DNA from: Octopus vulgaris
Lineage: Eukaryota
Direction: 5' to 3'
Length of the DNA stretch: 64,000 nucleotides
Assembly: GCA_951406725.2 (NCBI GenBank)
Contig: OX597839.1
Coordinates: 9,920,001-9,984,000 of the forward strand
Below, piece by piece: positions 1 to 18,103 of this stretch. Position 1 is the stretch's first letter, and every line of letters starts with the position of its first letter. The notes under the pieces are model-generated. The model was given only the letters and a program-made list of their open reading frames with translations, did no database searches and was not told the DNA's origin. Position numbers and translations under genes: made by a program.

Positions 1-63
1 GGCTCCTTGAATGCTGTTTCCTCTGAATGTGCTTTTATGACCCTTACTTTTAGGCATATACCT
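1..63 (-). CDS. Candidate downstream exon of the ZCWPW-like gene (continues beyond window start)
   Basis: aaacag|AGG TAT ATG is a phase-0 acceptor matching the phase-0 donor at 2017; open frame RYMPKSKGHKSTFRGNSIQGA; weak polypyrimidine tract. Confidence 0.4.
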
Positions 64-2016: not shown

Positions 2017-2221
2017 CTTTGAAACTAATGATTGAGGGTTGCTATCTAACAAGTGAATACAACTGCTTGAAATCCAAGCATGAGAGTGAGGAGTGCCCAA
2101 GAACTCCACATGGTAACTGTCTACAACAATCTCTTCCATGTCCTTGTGTTTCCTTTGCTCTTCTTCCTGGTACTCAACGTATGTGTTATAGAATGGATCA
2201 AAACTTACAACAGCTGGCCAC
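2017..2221 (-). CDS. ZCWPW-like gene, PWWP-domain exon
   Basis: tttcag|G TGG CCA GCT completes GYCW-WPAVV across a phase-2 intron; encodes WPAVVSFDPF...YHVEFLGTPHSHAWIS (PWWP strands); ends AAG|gtaaga. Confidence 0.9.
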
Positions 2222-3748: not shown

Positions 3749-5349
3749 GATCCTCTGAGTTTTAGCTGATGGTACTGTAGAAATTGAAGTTTGTTGGTCT
3801 TGTTGCTGTCTCAGTTGGTCTTCATTATTTTTGCTTTTGCCTGCCTTTCTAGTTCTTTTGAGCAAGAGCTCTGAGGGGATTCTTACAACAACAAGACTTT
3901 TTGTACTCACATGTAATTGAAAAATTTAAGTATTATGGCTTTACCGTTTGTGAGGAAAAGTGAATTTTCTTACCAGAAATAAGATATCTAGGACATAAGA
4001 TATCGGGAGAGCCAGCAGCTGCACCAGGCTCCAATCTGTTCTGGAAATGTTTCTACAGCTGGATGCCCTTCCTAATGCCAACCACTCTGAGAGTGTAGTG
4101 GGTGATTTTTACATGCCACTGGCACAGGAGCCAGTCAGGCATGTCTGGCATCGATCATGTTCGGATAGTGCTTTTTACATGCTACCGGCACAAATGTGTA
4201 TAAATGTGTTCCAATATGGCTTTATGGCTTTCAGCATTATTAATTTGTAGTGTAATGGAGGAAAGGGACAACAGAAAAAGAAGCAAATGGGAGAAAGAAA
4301 TACAAAAGGCCTTACCTCGGCGAAATCAGCAGTCTCTTTCACCAATTCAACACGTCTTGTCGCTCTACCGTCTGTGCTGGAACTGACCACACTTCCTCGC
4401 TGACCACATGTGCTTCCTCCCACGCATGCGCCTTTCACTCTTCCGCCGGCCCCTGCAGACCTTACTTCCACCCACCTCATCTGTCATCCTCTCCACCAAC
4501 ACCACATAGCTCATCACAGCCCATAACACTGCCAACACCACATAATTCTTGCAAATTCATTCTGTCACCCCCTCTTAGCCCTATTTTAACCACTCACCTA
4601 TACGGCAATACAAAACTTATTACTAACCAAAGATTTACATGGTTTCTGATCTCTCTTATCATCACTCTTCTATTTCTTTGTACCATGTATTGGGACACAA
4701 ATGTATAGAGGGAGGTATTCAGCTTAATCTGGTGAAAAATCTAGATCCTGTTCATTTACTCTAGTCATTAAGCTGTCTCACTGCATATCATGGAATGGTT
4801 GCTCTATGTAATATGCATTAAGAGTGCTTAATGATTGAAGTAAACAGTCTTTGGTTTTTATGCCAAAGTAAATGTCTCTTTAACATGAAACTAGAGTTGC
4901 TGTTTAAATTACCAAGTTATTGTATTTAAGACACACACACATTTAATACATATTGAAAACAAATATCACACACGCATATTGCACTTTCTTACAAATGTCA
5001 CACATGAAATATCATCATCATCTAATGTCCGTTTGCCATGTTGGCATGGGTTGGACGGTTTGACTGAGGTTGGGAGAGCCAGTAGCTGCACCAGGCTCCA
5101 ATCTGATCTGGAAATGTTTCTACGGCTGGATGTCCTTCCTAATGCCAACCACTCTGAGAGTATAGTGGGTGCTTTTTACATGCCACCGGCACAGGAGCCA
5201 GTCAGGCAGGCCTGGCATCGATCATGTTCGGATAGTGCTTTTTACATGCTACCGGCACAAATGTGTATAATGTGTATGTGTGTGTGTGTGTGAGTGTGTG
5301 TGCATATTTATACATACATGCATGATATATAATACATTTTAAACCTTAC

Positions 5350-5609
5350 CAACAGTAGCCTGCCATTATGGCCATCACCATATCTCCTGGGGTTAAATAT
5401 GGATATACAAACACAATTCCCTTTTTCCACATAGTTTTCTCAATGGATTCAAAATTATCTTCTTCGATATTGCAGTTATTCTTTGTCTGATCTTTGTTGA
5501 ATTTGCAAATCCACTTCTTGTCATCATCACACCATCTGCGAACTTCCTGCTTGCTCACACATCTCCATTTTAAGCAGCTATCACACTGGATCCAAGACAT
5601 TCCTATGAT
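5350..5609 (-). CDS. ZCWPW-like gene, zf-CW exon copy 1 (CW zinc finger plus start of PWWP)
   Basis: aacccag|ATC ATA GGA ATG (phase 0); WIQCDSCLKWR...W.C..N......C is the zf-CW pattern; GDMVMAIMAGYCW starts the PWWP; TG|gtaagg (phase 2). Confidence 0.9.
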
Positions 5610-6046
5610 CTGGGTTGGTAAATGACAAACAGAGATGACGGTTAATTAGCGACATAAATGATAGTGTTGGTGGAGGATGTGTTAGTGATAATGGGGATGG
5701 GAATGATGGTTGTATGTGAAGGTAGTAGTGCCGTTGTAATTGTTGTTGTTAGTGGTGGTGGAACAACATTAATACATATTGGGTGGCGAGCTGGCAGAAA
5801 CGTTAGCACGCCAGGTGAAATGCTCAGCGGTATTTCGTCTGCGGCTACGTTCTGAGTTCAAATTCCGCCAAGGTCGACTTTGCCTTTCATCCTTTCGGGG
5901 TCGATAAATTAAGTACCAGTTACGCACTGGGGTAAATATAATCGACTTAATACCTATGTCTGTCCTTGTTCGTCCCCTCTGTGTTTAGCCCCTTGTGGGT
6001 AGTAAAGAAATAGGAACAATATTAATACATATTTCATCAAACATAC

Positions 6047-6249
6047 CTCTTTTTCTTCCAACCCTTTCAGAGATAATTGTCTTCTCAGCTTTAATCCAGA
6101 ATCTTTATCATTCTTACTTGAGTTTTTGACAATTGGGGCATCACTCCAAGCCACATTTTCGCTTGATTTTTCAGCAGCTGGAAGCAAATTAAGAATCTGT
6201 TCCTGGAGCTCATTGTTGAGATTTTCAAATATTTTCGGACTAGATAAGA
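6047..6249 (-). CDS. ZCWPW-like gene, N-terminal linker exon
   Basis: Long T-tract then caag|TC TTA TCT (phase 1); open frame VLSSPKIFEN...GLEEKE; GAG|gtatgt (phase 0) matches the CW copy 1 acceptor. Confidence 0.8.
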
Positions 6250-6365
6250 CTTGTTTCATGAAAGAAGAAAAAAAAAGAAATAATAAAAATGATTAGTCCA
6301 AGAGTAGTACAAGGGAGAGGTGTTTAGTCATACATGCATGATATATAATACATTTTAAACCTTAC

Positions 6366-6615
6366 CAACAGTAGCCTGCCATTATGGCCATCACCATATC
6401 TCCTGGGGTTAAATATGGATATACAAACACAATTCCTTTTTTCCACATAGTTTCCTCAATGGATTCAAAATTATCTTCTTCGATATTGCAGTTATTCTTT
6501 GTCTGATCTTTGTTGAATTTGCAAATCCACTTCTTGTCATCATCACACCATCTATGAACTTCCTGCTTGCTCACACGTCTCCATTTTAAGCAGTTATCAC
6601 ATTGGATCCAAGTAT
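6366..6615 (-). CDS. ZCWPW-like gene, zf-CW exon copy 2 (duplicated; alternative exon or pseudo-exon)
   Basis: 284-bp duplicate of 5313-5596 with 7 substitutions; intact frame; ctgtcag|AT ACT TGG (phase 1) and TG|gtaagg (phase 2). Confidence 0.6.
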
Positions 6616-6741
6616 CTGACAGGTGTTTATTGTATTGACCATCAGATCCCAAAGAAAGGGTGAGGGATAAAAAGGTGATGTTGATTTGAACTTAAAACAT
6701 GACAGAAAGAAAGTAACTAAATACTGTAATGTATTTAGTGC

Positions 6742-7142
6742 AATTCTTTTCGGTTTGAACGGCAGTTTTTAAAAATAATTTCCATGTAACTAAACACTTT
6801 TAAACTTCGTATACCGGTAGAATGTGTTTATAAAACATCTTTTCTCTTGGCTTTATTGAGAAAATTCTATAGTTTGTAAGATATTTGTTGTTTTTTCTTC
6901 AATTTCTACAATTTCAACCAATCAATGACGTCTATTGAGGTGAAAACATTCTGTACCGTATGAATATGTCCCTCGTTTAAGAAATAGATTGGGTTTATTT
7001 ACATTTCTGAAGAAAAAAAATACCCTTCACCCAACCCCTAAAACAGATTGAAATGCAATAGATCGATACTAGGGTCATAATTATGGGTGACAATTTCATA
7101 TGACACCGCTAGAAAAAACTGCCGTTCAAACCGAAAAGATCC
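6742..7142. mobile_element. Merlin-type MITE family D
   Basis: Same TIRs and internal sequence as 1496-1929. Confidence 0.85.
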
Positions 7143-7905
7143 CTTATCTAGAAGGGAAGCTGCAGGCTGGACATAGACATAATGTTATATGAAATGACAA
7201 GTGAAAATGATGATAAATGAGGGCAACAAGCAATGCCTGCCAATTGCTGCTTATCCAAGAACATTGCTCTTTTATATTTCATTTACAAGGCAACAAACCA
7301 CTTACATTTTTCCCAATTCAATAACAAAAATGAGGCACTAAGCCTCTTACCTTTATTTTGAACTTTCATGCCTGACCAGGCTCCTCCTCTCATTCAAACA
7401 CCTGGACAGTGCCAAGTCGGGCCACTTTAACATAAATCTAAAAGTGTCCTCGGGGAAGGAATTCATCACTCTGCACAAATCGATCTCCCATATGACCTCC
7501 GCAGCCACCTATGAAAGCCAGTCAGGGTCGTCAGTGCAGGATAGAATCCCTTCCCTCCGGCCTTTCTTTTTAAACTTCCTAACGAAGCTTTCTAACGACC
7601 CTCCCTTATGGCAGAGGATCACAAATTCCTCATCCTTAGCATGGGAATGGCCTACAGTTTCTACCTTCGGTGGCACAACTCCTACCAAAGGTGCCATGTG
7701 GCTTCTACCAACCTGCAGCTACTAGCATGGGAAGGGCCTACAGTTTCTACCTTCGGTGGCACAGCCATATTAGTTTGTGATAAAAAAGTGTTTTGAATAT
7801 TTTTTAAACACTTAAGTATTAATATTAATTAACATAAACCTGGAACTAACTTAATTTTTCTTTTTCTTTAAGGACTAGTCAAGGGAGGAAATATTACAGA
7901 CTTAC

Positions 7906-7988
7906 CTGTTTTCTTCCAAAATCGAGTGACAACTTTCTGAAGATCCATATGTTCACAGTTCACTGTACTATAATATCCTGACTGATCT
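7906..7988 (-). CDS. ZCWPW-like gene, upstream exon (may carry the start codon)
   Basis: ttctttgtag|AGATCAG...AAAACAG|gtaagt strong splice sites; open frame DQSGYYSTVNCEHMDLQKVVTRFWKKT, ends in phase 1. Confidence 0.75.
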
Positions 7989-10301: not shown

Positions 10302-10720
10302 GGCGATCTTTCGTCTCTAGTAGACCTTTCCGTCGATTTCCGTAAAAAATTTTTTTTTACATATGGGCTTGCGGGAACTTTTGAAGTAATATACATACAT
10401 ATATACATACACCGAGTAAAAAATTTCAGTTATCTCTTTCTTTCACACATTACTCTGTCTCTTCACACATACTAACAGAAGCACTTCACTTACACAACAT
10501 ACTGTCTGTCTTCCACACCCCATCAAACACACACACACACACACATGTACATCAATGCTTCCCATGCACGGTAACTTCAAAAGAATTTCCTCGTCATACA
10601 ATCGCTTTCTCTTAGTTTCTTTCGCTCTCATTACTTCAAAAGTTCCCGCAAGCCCATATGTAAAAAAAAAAAATTTTTACGGAAATCGACGGAAAGGTCT
10701 ACTAGAGACGAAAGATTGCC
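10302..10720. mobile_element. MITE family E with ~90-bp TIRs (Merlin-type)
   Basis: GGCGATCTTTCGTCTCTAG...CTAGAGACGAAAGATTGCC; perfect 8-bp TSD aaattttc. Confidence 0.9.
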
Positions 10721-11451
10721 AAATTTTCATTTTTGGGGGGAAAATATCATTTTCAAATGTAAAAATCACACCTTTGCTTTCAACTTATTTGTTTGTACCA
10801 CCTTGTGCCTAGGAAATCTTTGTAAAAAGTTAAGTACAATGCTAATACTGAATATGTATTTCTTTCATTATTTTATCGCAGACTTAATCTCTCTCTTTTT
10901 AACAAACTCAAAAGGTAACGCATCCTGTACGCAGTCATTTCACACGCTAGAAATAGAAAGGAACACATGGTTATATTCTAAAGGCCTATAGCGTATCAGA
11001 AGCAGACCATACCAACCAATTCATCTCTGGTCTTTTTTCACATTATTCTAATAATGGTACAGTTTACTTCTTCCAGTCACTGAACTGTGGCCATGCGGAG
11101 GCACCAACTTTTAGTCGAACAAATCAACCCAAGGGTTTATTTGTTTTTAAAGACCGGCACTTTAGATCAGATCAGGAAGAATAACTTCCAGAAATGGTTG
11201 AGTTCTCCTACAAAGAAGAGATGCAACCAGTGAAAATTTGACAAATAGTTCAAGGATTCTCCATTTGAGTATCCTGAGTAATCATGTGCACACAACCACA
11301 TATACATATGGAATCTTTATTACGATCATGACGATCTTATATAGAATGGGACAATACAGGACAAACACAAGACAAAAATGTTAGATGAGTTCGAATGAGT
11401 TACATGTTAAAAATTTATTTTAAAAATATTTTATATAACGATTAAATTTTC

Positions 11452-11874
11452 GGCAATCTTTCGTCTCTAGTAGACCTTTCCGTCGATTTCCGTAAAAAAA
11501 TTTTTTTTTTTACATATGGGCTTGCGGGAACTTTTGAAATAATGAGAGCGAAAGAGACTAAGAGAAAGCGATTGTATGACGAAGGAAGTTCTTTTGAAGT
11601 TACCGTGCATGTGAAGCATTGATGTACATGTGTGTGTGTGTGTGTGTGTGTGTTTGATGGGGTGTGGGAGACAGACAGTATGTTGTGTAAGTGAAGTGCT
11701 TCTGTTAGTGTGTGTGAAGAGACAGAGTAATGTGTGAAAGAAAGAGATAACTGAAATTTTTTACTCGGTGTATGTGTATGTATATTACTTCAAAAGTTCC
11801 CGCAAGCCCATACGTAAAAAAAAAAAATTTTTACGGAAATCGACGGAAAGGTCTACTAGAGACGAAAGATCGCC
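11452..11874. mobile_element. MITE family E, inverted second copy
   Basis: Near-identical reverse complement of 10302-10720. Confidence 0.9.
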
Positions 11875-17890: not shown

Positions 17891-18103
17891 ATATAATTAG
17901 AAACAAACAAAAGAAATCAACATACTCATGATCCTTATCAATACCACCATAAACCATGAACACAATCATAATCATTATCGATATCACCAAAAAACACCAA
18001 CATCATCATAATCATCCTCAAAACCACAGCAATGCAATCCTGATCACCATCAAAACCACCAAAACCAGCAGAACTGAGAAAAACATCACAGATGTGCTTG
18101 AAT

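What the first reader, a model, noticed from the sequence alone, without database searches (positions are those of the whole stretch)
5313..7988. Duplicated CW zinc-finger exon whose splice phases allow isoforms with one or two CW domains
Seen: a 284-bp segment (CW exon plus 37 nt of downstream intron) occurs twice, 1016 bp apart (5313-5596 and 6329-6612). All 7 differences are transitions inside the exon and change 4 residues (S/N, C/R, R/H, K/E); the Zn-binding Cys, the Trp residues and the donor site are intact. Copy 2 lies upstream of the linker exon and has its own phase-1 AG in what looks like decayed SINE sequence. Three in-frame paths exist: exon 7988-linker-CW1-PWWP; exon 7988-CW2-PWWP; and exon 7988-CW2-(alternative TAG acceptor, exon from 6240)-linker-CW1-PWWP with two CW fingers. 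Inference: a young exon duplication diversifying an H3K4me reader.
Basis: partly seen in the sequence, partly recalled or inferred. Interest (0 to 1): 0.72.

Follow-up and report, generated by a model that had tools for sequence, protein, structure and literature searches.

The report
Stray exon copy in octopus ZCWPW2
An octopus gene for a predicted histone-mark reader carries a real, young second copy of one exon inside a neighbouring intron, but the copy lacks its own splice acceptor and is likely a silent leftover rather than a switch between one- and two-finger proteins.

Summary
The duplicate is real: 284 bp, 7 transitions, two copies in the genome, at twice the linker exon's depth in a public DNA run. 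Its 3' junction also occurs in two other organisms, so it is no assembly artefact. The host is a ZCWPW2-like CW-PWWP-ARID gene. All three paths are open frames (alternative exon starts at 6239, not 6240), but that is chance-level: 39% of intron positions offer an open in-frame AG within 25 nt. The 6615 acceptor scores below all 12 real acceptors; a stronger SINE-derived AG at 6690 was missed. Spliced contigs from two relatives and 4 of 4 O. sinensis isoforms show only the one-CW path. Other individuals' contigs show a new out-of-frame AG near the copy's acceptor and (depth 3.6, weak) a stop at a conserved Trp; at least two of the four residue differences are not fixed. A public O. vulgaris model already predicts the two-CW form. 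Verdict: likely an unspliced pseudoexon, inserted into a decayed SINE with a 12-nt target-site-like repeat. RNA of this species was thin and no gonad data were identified. The scan had not noted this copy; it noted a second stray copy in this gene.

The parts
7906..7988 (-). Exon with the only ATG (7948), matching the start of P0002-P0005; ends in phase 1
   Evidence: bin depths of X11 and X18 fit exactly 7906-7988
6613..6745 (-). Decayed SINE, same sense as the gene, into which the copy is set; supplies AGs for exon starts at 6716 (out of frame), 6690 and 6615 (both in frame)
   Evidence: score 47 against null 19.8 +/- 3.0, 0 of 500 shuffles; one full-length place in the genome; AG list
6691..6692 (-).
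   Evidence: score 2.19, 94th percentile of 1472 background AGs; path is contained in P0001
6616..6617 (-).
   Evidence: score -1.9, 74th percentile, below 12 of 12 real acceptors
6618..6629 (-). Left copy of a 12-nt target-site-like repeat (11 of 12 letters equal)
   Evidence: 28 of 3000 random pairs reach it (flanks chosen after seeing it)
6329..6612 (-). Copy 2: CW exon without its first 13 nt and native acceptor, plus donor and 37 nt of intron; likely pseudoexon
   Evidence: zf-CW E 1.2e-10
6315..6326 (-). Right copy of the 12-nt target-site-like repeat
6047..6249 (-). Linker exon; acceptor at 6249 used in a spliced contig and in P0002-P0005; internal TAG gives a possible start at 6239
5753..6012 (+). 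Young SINE in the intron between linker and CW1
5350..5609 (-). CW1: the true exon; CW finger plus the first 13 residues of PWWP
   Evidence: spliced to the linker exon in X11 and X18 contigs; Pfam
5313..5596 (-). Source of the duplicated block (copy 1)
2017..2221 (-). Exon with the rest of the PWWP core
   Evidence: PWWP E 4.3e-6
1..63 (-). Start of the next exon; the gene runs on about 15.5 kb beyond the window's first base and includes the ARID exons

Best explanation
The 284-bp block is a genuine second copy of most of the CW exon of a ZCWPW2-like gene, sitting in the upstream intron without its own acceptor, and it is likely skipped, so the gene likely makes only the one-CW, PWWP, ARID protein. 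Shown: two copies, loss of the first 13 nt and the native acceptor, a decayed-SINE flank, an intact single-CW reading frame of 724 codons, and linker>CW1 splicing in contigs of two relatives. Inferred: the block was copied from about 1 kb away (from the gene's own pre-mRNA or DNA) into a staggered break in the old SINE, leaving a 12-nt target-site-like repeat, at about the time that organisms A, B and C separated; since then it drifts. Inferred: the spliceosome normally joins 7906 to 6249 because the copy's nearest AG is weak; if the copy is included and joined to the normal 6249 acceptor the frame ends at codon 113, which would feed nonsense-mediated decay. Inferred from the vertebrate orthologue: the normal protein reads H3K4me3 with CW and H3K36me3 with PWWP in meiosis.
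For: Real and shared: in DNA run X2 the block has depth 25.3 against 12.7 on the linker exon, and both 5' flanks are present; the 3' junction 6329/6328 is crossed by contigs in 4 of 4 DNA runs laid, of organisms A, A, B, C. One-CW splicing: an X11 contig joins 6047>5609 and starts the linker at 6249, an X18 contig joins the same two exons, and in both runs the bin depths fit the same contig going on into 7906-7988 (inferred by arithmetic; that joint is not listed because tables 5 and 8 were cut). 4 of 4 O. sinensis isoforms have one CW; 18 of 18 scanned homologues have one zf-CW stretch. Weak acceptor: 6615 scores below 12 of 12 real acceptors. Chance-level frames. Drift: X2 reads a letter at 6621 (depth 13.4 of 13.4) that makes a new AG 4 nt upstream, out of frame with a stop after 34 codons; X8's contig with the copy-2 junction and the copy-2 Arg has TGG>TGA at the third invariant Trp. 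X2 has Cys at 6577 in 3 of 3 contigs, and X15 has His in CW1, so C/R and R/H are not fixed differences. A second, inverted, unspliceable 613-bp exon copy of similar divergence (96%) persists in the same gene.
Against: The reference copy has no stop or frameshift, and keeps every Zn and cage residue and its donor (but 7 neutral transitions would leave no stop 68% of the time). The 6690 acceptor scores inside the range of real ones (94th percentile), is in frame, is unaffected by the X2 letter at 6621, and the public model P0001 uses it together with 6239 (87th percentile). RNA evidence is thin: contigs of depth 3-10, tissues unknown, contigs drop rare forms, and only a 218-nt contig of organism A could be assigned to a copy; presence of the copy in organism E's DNA was not tested. 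The X8 stop rests on one contig of depth 3.6 and may be an error; collapsed contigs can be chimeric (X2 record 2 is). The acceptor score is my own model from 12 sites. X4 and X5 contigs show the junction with a native CW1-type 5' flank, which fits a longer original duplicate instead of a 284-bp insertion. C>R in copy 2 moves to the commonest residue of the family (R in 13 of 26).
Confidence: 0.72

Rival explanations
1. Functional alternative exon: in some tissue (likely gonad) a SINE-derived acceptor, more likely 6690 than 6615, brings copy 2 in, giving a short one-CW form without the linker or a two-CW form through 6239.
For: All paths open; 6690 at the 94th and 6239 at the 87th percentile; P0001 models the two-CW form; copy kept across organisms A, B, C; intronic exon copies in human show raised read support in some tissues (PMC9013439, passages).
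Against: No contig with a copy-2 joint among those listed in 4 runs; P0001 also skips four ARID-region exons that are intact and in frame, so it is a poor model; the two-CW form would hold an orphan first PWWP strand and cage Tyr; possible stop allele in X8; frames are chance-level.
Confidence: 0.1
2. Poison exon: copy 2 is included at a low rate and joined to the default 6249 acceptor, which shifts the frame, so it would lower ZCWPW2 output through decay rather than make a new protein.
For: 6615>6249 stops at codon 113 and 6615>5609 at codon 110; the donor is identical to a working one; the 116-nt intron to 6249 is of spliceable size (inference).
Against: No such joint seen; no sign of conservation of the acceptor (X2 letter at 6621).
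Confidence: 0.12
3. Different origin (compatible with the dead-copy reading): a longer tandem duplication that kept the native acceptor survives in organisms B and C, and organism A later lost its 5' part by a deletion into the SINE.
For: One X4 contig runs 6021-6612 and continues with 209 nt of CW1-type flank; X5 does so for 108 nt; neither run shows 6613-6740; X5 has two linker versions and about 2.7-fold depth on the block. 6328-5313 is exactly one 1016-nt unit.
Against: The 12-nt repeat flanks both ends of the block; X2 shows that these contigs merge the two copies and drop branches, and the tool warns that holes prove nothing.
Confidence: 0.3
4. Assembly or haplotype artefact.
For: Copies are only 2.5% apart.
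Against: 2:1 depth and both 5' flanks in X2; the 3' junction in 4 of 4 DNA runs from 4 studies. Any one of them could be the source sample, but not all.
Confidence: 0.02

Closest known systems
Vertebrate ZCWPW2 (PDB 4o62; PMC8892340 and bioRxiv 10.64898/2026.05.22.727067, passages read)
   Same: CW finger followed by PWWP; best solved match is the ZCWPW2 CW domain (E 1.3e-8; ZCWPW1 E 0.0097); both cage Trp and the EEDNF Phe align; groups with named ZCWPW2 proteins in the tree.
   Different: The octopus protein, like 15 of 18 scanned homologues, adds a C-terminal ARID domain that the bat ZCWPW2 lacks; binding and meiotic role are untested here.
Tandem duplicated exon substitutions / mutually exclusive exons (PMC9741552, abstract and outline)
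   Same: A homologous exon copy within the same gene, with key residues kept.
   Different: Those are mostly ancient and highly expressed; this copy is 2.5% diverged, lacks the native acceptor, starts in another phase, lies on the far side of an unrelated exon, and has no expression evidence.
Unannotated intronic exon duplicates (PMC9013439, passages)
   Same: An intronic copy of a neighbouring exon at high identity; the paper lists 4,027 such human targets, some with tissue-specific read support.
   Different: Nothing of substance; this is one octopus case, with a SINE-derived candidate acceptor.
Local precursor mRNA co-inserted by L1 (PMC10191854, passages)
   Same: A piece of nearby exon-plus-intron sequence re-inserted close to its source, with a target-site-like repeat.
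   Different: No retroelement body and no poly-A tail accompany this block; a DNA-templated repair insertion fits as well.
Public model CAI9741206.1 (P0001)
   Same: Matches the window and already contains both CW copies, through acceptors 6690 and 6239.
   Different: It omits the ARID exons; its RNA support is not known to me.

Membership tests
ZCWPW2 orthologues | zf-CW followed by PWWP | tested here: met
   Pfam PF07496 and PF00855 over cut-off
ZCWPW2 orthologues | Groups with ZCWPW2, not ZCWPW1 | tested here: met
   Quick IQ-TREE tree of 127 of 153 proteins: P0002 lies in a 47-row clade (SH-aLRT 99) with bat, stingray and hagfish ZCWPW2; 6 rows named ZCWPW1 or ZCWPW1-like lie in the other clade. 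P0002 is a long branch; no bootstrap; the careful search did not finish.
ZCWPW2 orthologues | CW cage and Zn ligands, PWWP cage aromatics | tested here: met
   4 Cys and 3 Trp invariant in 28 of 28; alignment to 4o62; Tyr302 column aromatic or His in 26 of 26
ZCWPW2 orthologues | Binds H3K4me3 and H3K36me3; acts with PRDM9 in meiosis | not testable with these tools
   SSXRD search of the genome found nothing and its control did not ring either, so it is uninformative
Mutually exclusive tandem duplicated exons | Two homologous exons in one gene | tested here: met
Mutually exclusive tandem duplicated exons | Both copies have own splice sites and the same phases, so one replaces the other | tested here: not met
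   Copy 2 lacks the native acceptor and enters in phase 1, CW1 in phase 0; a 203-nt unrelated exon lies between
Mutually exclusive tandem duplicated exons | Both copies found in spliced RNA | tested here: inconclusive
   Only CW1 seen; 4 shallow contig sets of unknown tissue
Mutually exclusive tandem duplicated exons | Both copies under purifying selection | tested here: inconclusive
   4 of 7 changes non-silent, neutral expectation 0.70, p 0.44; possible stop allele at depth 3.6
Retrotransposon-mediated insertion | Target-site duplication | tested here: inconclusive
   12-nt repeat, 11 of 12 equal, 5 and 2 nt off the block ends; 28 of 3000 random pairs; empty site not seen in any run
Retrotransposon-mediated insertion | Poly-A tail or element body | tested here: not met
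   Neither at the block ends

The most novel reading that the evidence does not exclude
A retroelement's reverse transcriptase copied a piece of the gene's own unspliced RNA into an old SINE 1 kb upstream, and that SINE now supplies the acceptor (6690) that lets germ cells make a second form of ZCWPW2 with two H3K4me3-reading fingers or without the linker: an alternative exon of a recombination-hotspot reader caught at birth and still polymorphic among octopuses.
Probability: 0.1. Interest if true: 0.55.

Novelty: new member of a known kind. Interest (0 to 1): 0.2.

Why it matters
As a likely dead intronic exon copy it is ordinary, and its main use is practical: the public O. vulgaris model with two CW fingers and no ARID is probably wrong, and the gene is better modelled as a 724-codon single-CW, PWWP, ARID frame. 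If the copy were spliced in germ cells it would be a rare view of a new alternative exon forming in ZCWPW2, whose two reader domains are each needed for hotspot placement in mice, and a natural test of whether extra H3K4me3 avidity changes where recombination starts. The side finding that invertebrate ZCWPW2 relatives carry a DNA-binding ARID domain may matter more than the duplicate.

Tried and rejected
RNA cover of copy 2: depth was 0 over 6409-6684 in 4 of 4 runs laid (X15, X11, X16, X18), but an uncovered part proves nothing, X16 covered no exon of the gene, records that fit both copies are laid at one place (a second X15 contig lies in the near-identical 3' part and cannot be assigned), and a trace of 0.91 in bin 6317-6408 of X18 is unexplained. 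The SINE in that stretch swamped the joint tables (114 joints not shown). I laid 8 of the 24 runs listed; the two raw-read DNA runs were left out because under 3% of each would be read. Structure: AlphaFold2 on P0001 gave pLDDT mostly 77-95 (ten-residue means, 64-95) for CW1 and the start of PWWP and under 50 for residues 90-159, with no strand in the orphan PWWP piece; this is confounded because the homologues align to CW1 only, so I do not count it. DEUBAD/ASXH reading of the linker exon: E 0.011 and 0.043, below cut-off, and absent in 18 of 18 homologues; rejected as a family call, though abalone and limpet proteins show a similar N-terminal stretch across the 7906/6249 joint. Continuation of the SINE across the empty site: score rose only from 47 to 49 and the 3' flank alone was not above shuffles; inconclusive. 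My first reading, a longer duplicate truncated only in organism A, was demoted to a rival once X2 showed that such contigs merge copies. No other cephalopod orthologue was found to polarise the changes. PRDM9 partner: SSXRD search uninformative. Literature: one search returned only ecology papers; ('ZCWPW2' + 'ARID domain') returned 0; ('octopus' + 'exon duplication') listed 6 papers, none on this gene by title or abstract start; some searches gave the listings from which I read passages. No supplement was read; the cnidarian preprint's supplementary table (closed) may show domain layouts that bear on the ARID remark. In one search one exon end and one column index were off by one; one search corrects both. 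My note of '14 of 18' ARID proteins was a miscount; one search gives 15 of 18.
Full report
Observation. The block 5313-5596 recurs at 6329-6612: 284 nt, 1016 apart, 7 transitions, all in the exon. They give S/N, C/R, R/H, K/E and three silent changes. The genome holds only these two places. The flank 6613-6745 is a decayed SINE in the gene's sense (score 47, null 19.8 +/- 3.0, 0 of 500 shuffles). None of the finer patterns beats chance: 0 of 7 changes in the intron part has P = 0.38, 4 non-silent of 7 has p = 0.44, and an open in-frame AG lies within 25 nt at 2430 of 6251 intron positions of this gene and within 100 nt at 3815.

The gene. The CW1 exon matches P0001 (named O. vulgaris by its source) at 100% and P0002 (O. 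sinensis) at 95%. P0002 has zf-CW, PWWP and ARID. Twelve exons on the minus strand, running about 15.5 kb past the window's start, give an open single-CW frame of 724 codons, 96.5% identical to P0004 over all 717 residues. The closest solved structure is the ZCWPW2 CW domain (4o62, E 1.3e-8; ZCWPW1 E 0.0097). In a quick tree of 127 of 153 proteins P0002 falls in a 47-row clade (SH-aLRT 99) with bat, stingray and hagfish ZCWPW2, apart from the named ZCWPW1 rows; it is a long branch and the careful search did not finish. 15 of 18 scanned homologues have CW, PWWP and ARID, and 18 of 18 have one CW stretch; among 153 proteins a CW motif occurs in 120 and twice in only 2, P0001 and an unnamed protein matching over the CW part only. 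In mice CW reads H3K4me3, PWWP reads H3K36me3, and loss of either blocks meiosis (bioRxiv 10.64898/2026.05.22.727067, passages; PMC8892340, passages); ZCWPW2 is reported in cnidarians (bioRxiv 10.64898/2026.09.07.749791, passages). That function is carried over to octopus by inference only.

Is the copy real? Yes. I laid contigs of four DNA runs from four studies on 6020-6740. In X2 (organism A) the block has depth 25.3 against 12.7 on the linker exon, and both 5' flanks appear: one record goes on into the CW1 flank, another bridges 6583-6740. The 3' junction 6329/6328 is crossed in 4 of 4 runs (A, A, B, C). A spliced contig of organism C differs from CW1 at 5 of 262 letters, close to the 7 of 284 between the copies, so the duplication is about as old as the separation of these organisms (inference; no date computed).

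How it arose. A 12-nt word (11 of 12 equal) stands 5 nt before and 2 nt after the block; 28 of 3000 random pairs reach this, with flanks chosen after the fact. That suggests a 284-bp copy of exon plus intron start set into a staggered break in the old SINE. There is no poly-A tail or element body, so an RNA template (as in the L1 case of PMC10191854, passages) and a DNA template in break repair both fit. Against this, the X4 and X5 contigs join the junction to a CW1-type 5' flank (209 and 108 nt) and do not cover 6613-6740, which would fit a longer duplicate truncated only in A. But X2's main record carries CW1 letters with the copy-2 junction, so these contigs merge copies. I leave the origin at about 70:30. 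X5 has about 2.7-fold depth on the block and a further branch 11 nt after the donor that matches an interspersed repeat (18 genome hits, 0 in the control).

Is the copy spliced? The only spliced path seen is the one-CW path. An 814-nt X11 contig covers 6047-6249 and 5348-5609 in adjacent record positions, and a 2243-nt X18 contig joins the same exons; in both runs the depths of the last two bins equal that contig's depth over exactly 7906-7988, which implies a joint 7906>6249 across copy 2 (inferred; tables were cut). In X11 the depths around 6133-6316 leave no room for a second contig entering at 6239. An X15 contig (organism A, depth 3) begins at CW1's own start. 4 of 4 O. sinensis isoforms have one CW. 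This evidence is thin: depths 3-10, unknown tissues, rare forms dropped, and copy 2 not shown in organism E's DNA. With a simple model from the gene's 12 acceptors (leave-one-out -0.34 to 5.0; 84th-99th percentile of 1472 background AGs), 6615 scores -1.9 (74th), 6239 scores 0.32 (87th) and 6690 scores 2.19 (94th). P0001 thus already predicts the two-CW form, but it also skips four intact exons around the ARID domain, so I give it little weight. Joined to the normal 6249 acceptor, copy 2 ends in a stop at codon 113.

Is it diversifying? No sign. The cage Trp, third Trp and Zn Cys are invariant and unchanged. The four changed positions are variable columns among 26 homologues; Arg is the commonest residue at the C/R column (13 of 26). 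They are not fixed: X15 has His in CW1 and X2 has Cys at 6577 in 3 of 3 contigs. X2 reads a letter at 6621 that creates an AG 4 nt upstream of the 6615 acceptor, out of frame with a stop after 34 codons; it leaves the 6690 route open. X8's contig with the copy-2 junction and the copy-2 Arg has a stop at the third invariant Trp, but at depth 3.6 it may be an error. The exon also codes residues 292-304 of P0001, the first strand and one cage aromatic of PWWP, so a two-CW protein would carry an orphan PWWP piece.

Comparison and verdict. It works like the unannotated intronic exon copies surveyed in PMC9013439 (passages). It fails the test for a mutually exclusive exon pair, since the copy has neither the native acceptor nor the same entry phase (PMC9741552, abstract and outline). 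Searches found no paper on this gene's duplicate or on ZCWPW2 with ARID; most subscription papers and all supplements were not seen. Best reading: a real, young, likely skipped pseudoexon (0.72); poison exon 0.12; functional isoforms 0.10; artefact 0.02. New member of a known kind, interest 0.2.

Noticed in passing
L003:1672-7915 (G000:C26, ARID exons) and homologues P0006-P0026: Invertebrate ZCWPW2-clade proteins (scallop, abalone, sea slug, annelid, nemertean, acorn worm, brittle star) carry a C-terminal ARID DNA-binding domain: 15 of 18 scanned, not the bat ZCWPW2. A search for 'ZCWPW2' with 'ARID domain' found 0 papers.
   Followed up: partly
L003:446-1062 (G000:C26:9910446-9911062): Inverted 613-bp copy (96%) of part of an ARID exon and its intron, 1.5 kb from its source in the same gene; already noted as e1-9583509.
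   Followed up: partly
P0001 against L003: The public O. vulgaris model jumps from residue 526 to the exon at L004:8347, skipping four exons that are intact and in frame; its first exon (window 17925-17975) is unconfirmed.
   Followed up: yes
window 6355-6384, run X5: In organism C one branch leaves 11 nt after the CW donor into an interspersed repeat, and the block has about 2.7 times the linker depth: possibly a third copy or an element insertion.
   Followed up: partly
window 6072-6215, run X5: Two linker-exon versions differ at 5 of 144 letters (depths 6.4 and 4.9); alleles or paralogues not resolved.
   Followed up: no
window 7906-7948 and 6200-6249: The N-terminal stretch across this joint resembles that of abalone and limpet homologues and weakly hits Pfam ASXH (E 0.011, below cut-off).
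   Followed up: partly
window 10302-10726 and 11444-11874: Inverted pair of about 430 nt at 94% identity, 718 nt apart, probably a repeat element.
   Followed up: no
G000:C24:15381774, C1:86432466, C25:16533381, C3:175399018: Four other zf-CW matches in the genome, not identified; one may be ZCWPW1.
   Followed up: no
L004:4663: The last exon starts at a NAGNAG-like acceptor, fitting the one-residue differences among O. sinensis isoforms X1-X3.
   Followed up: no
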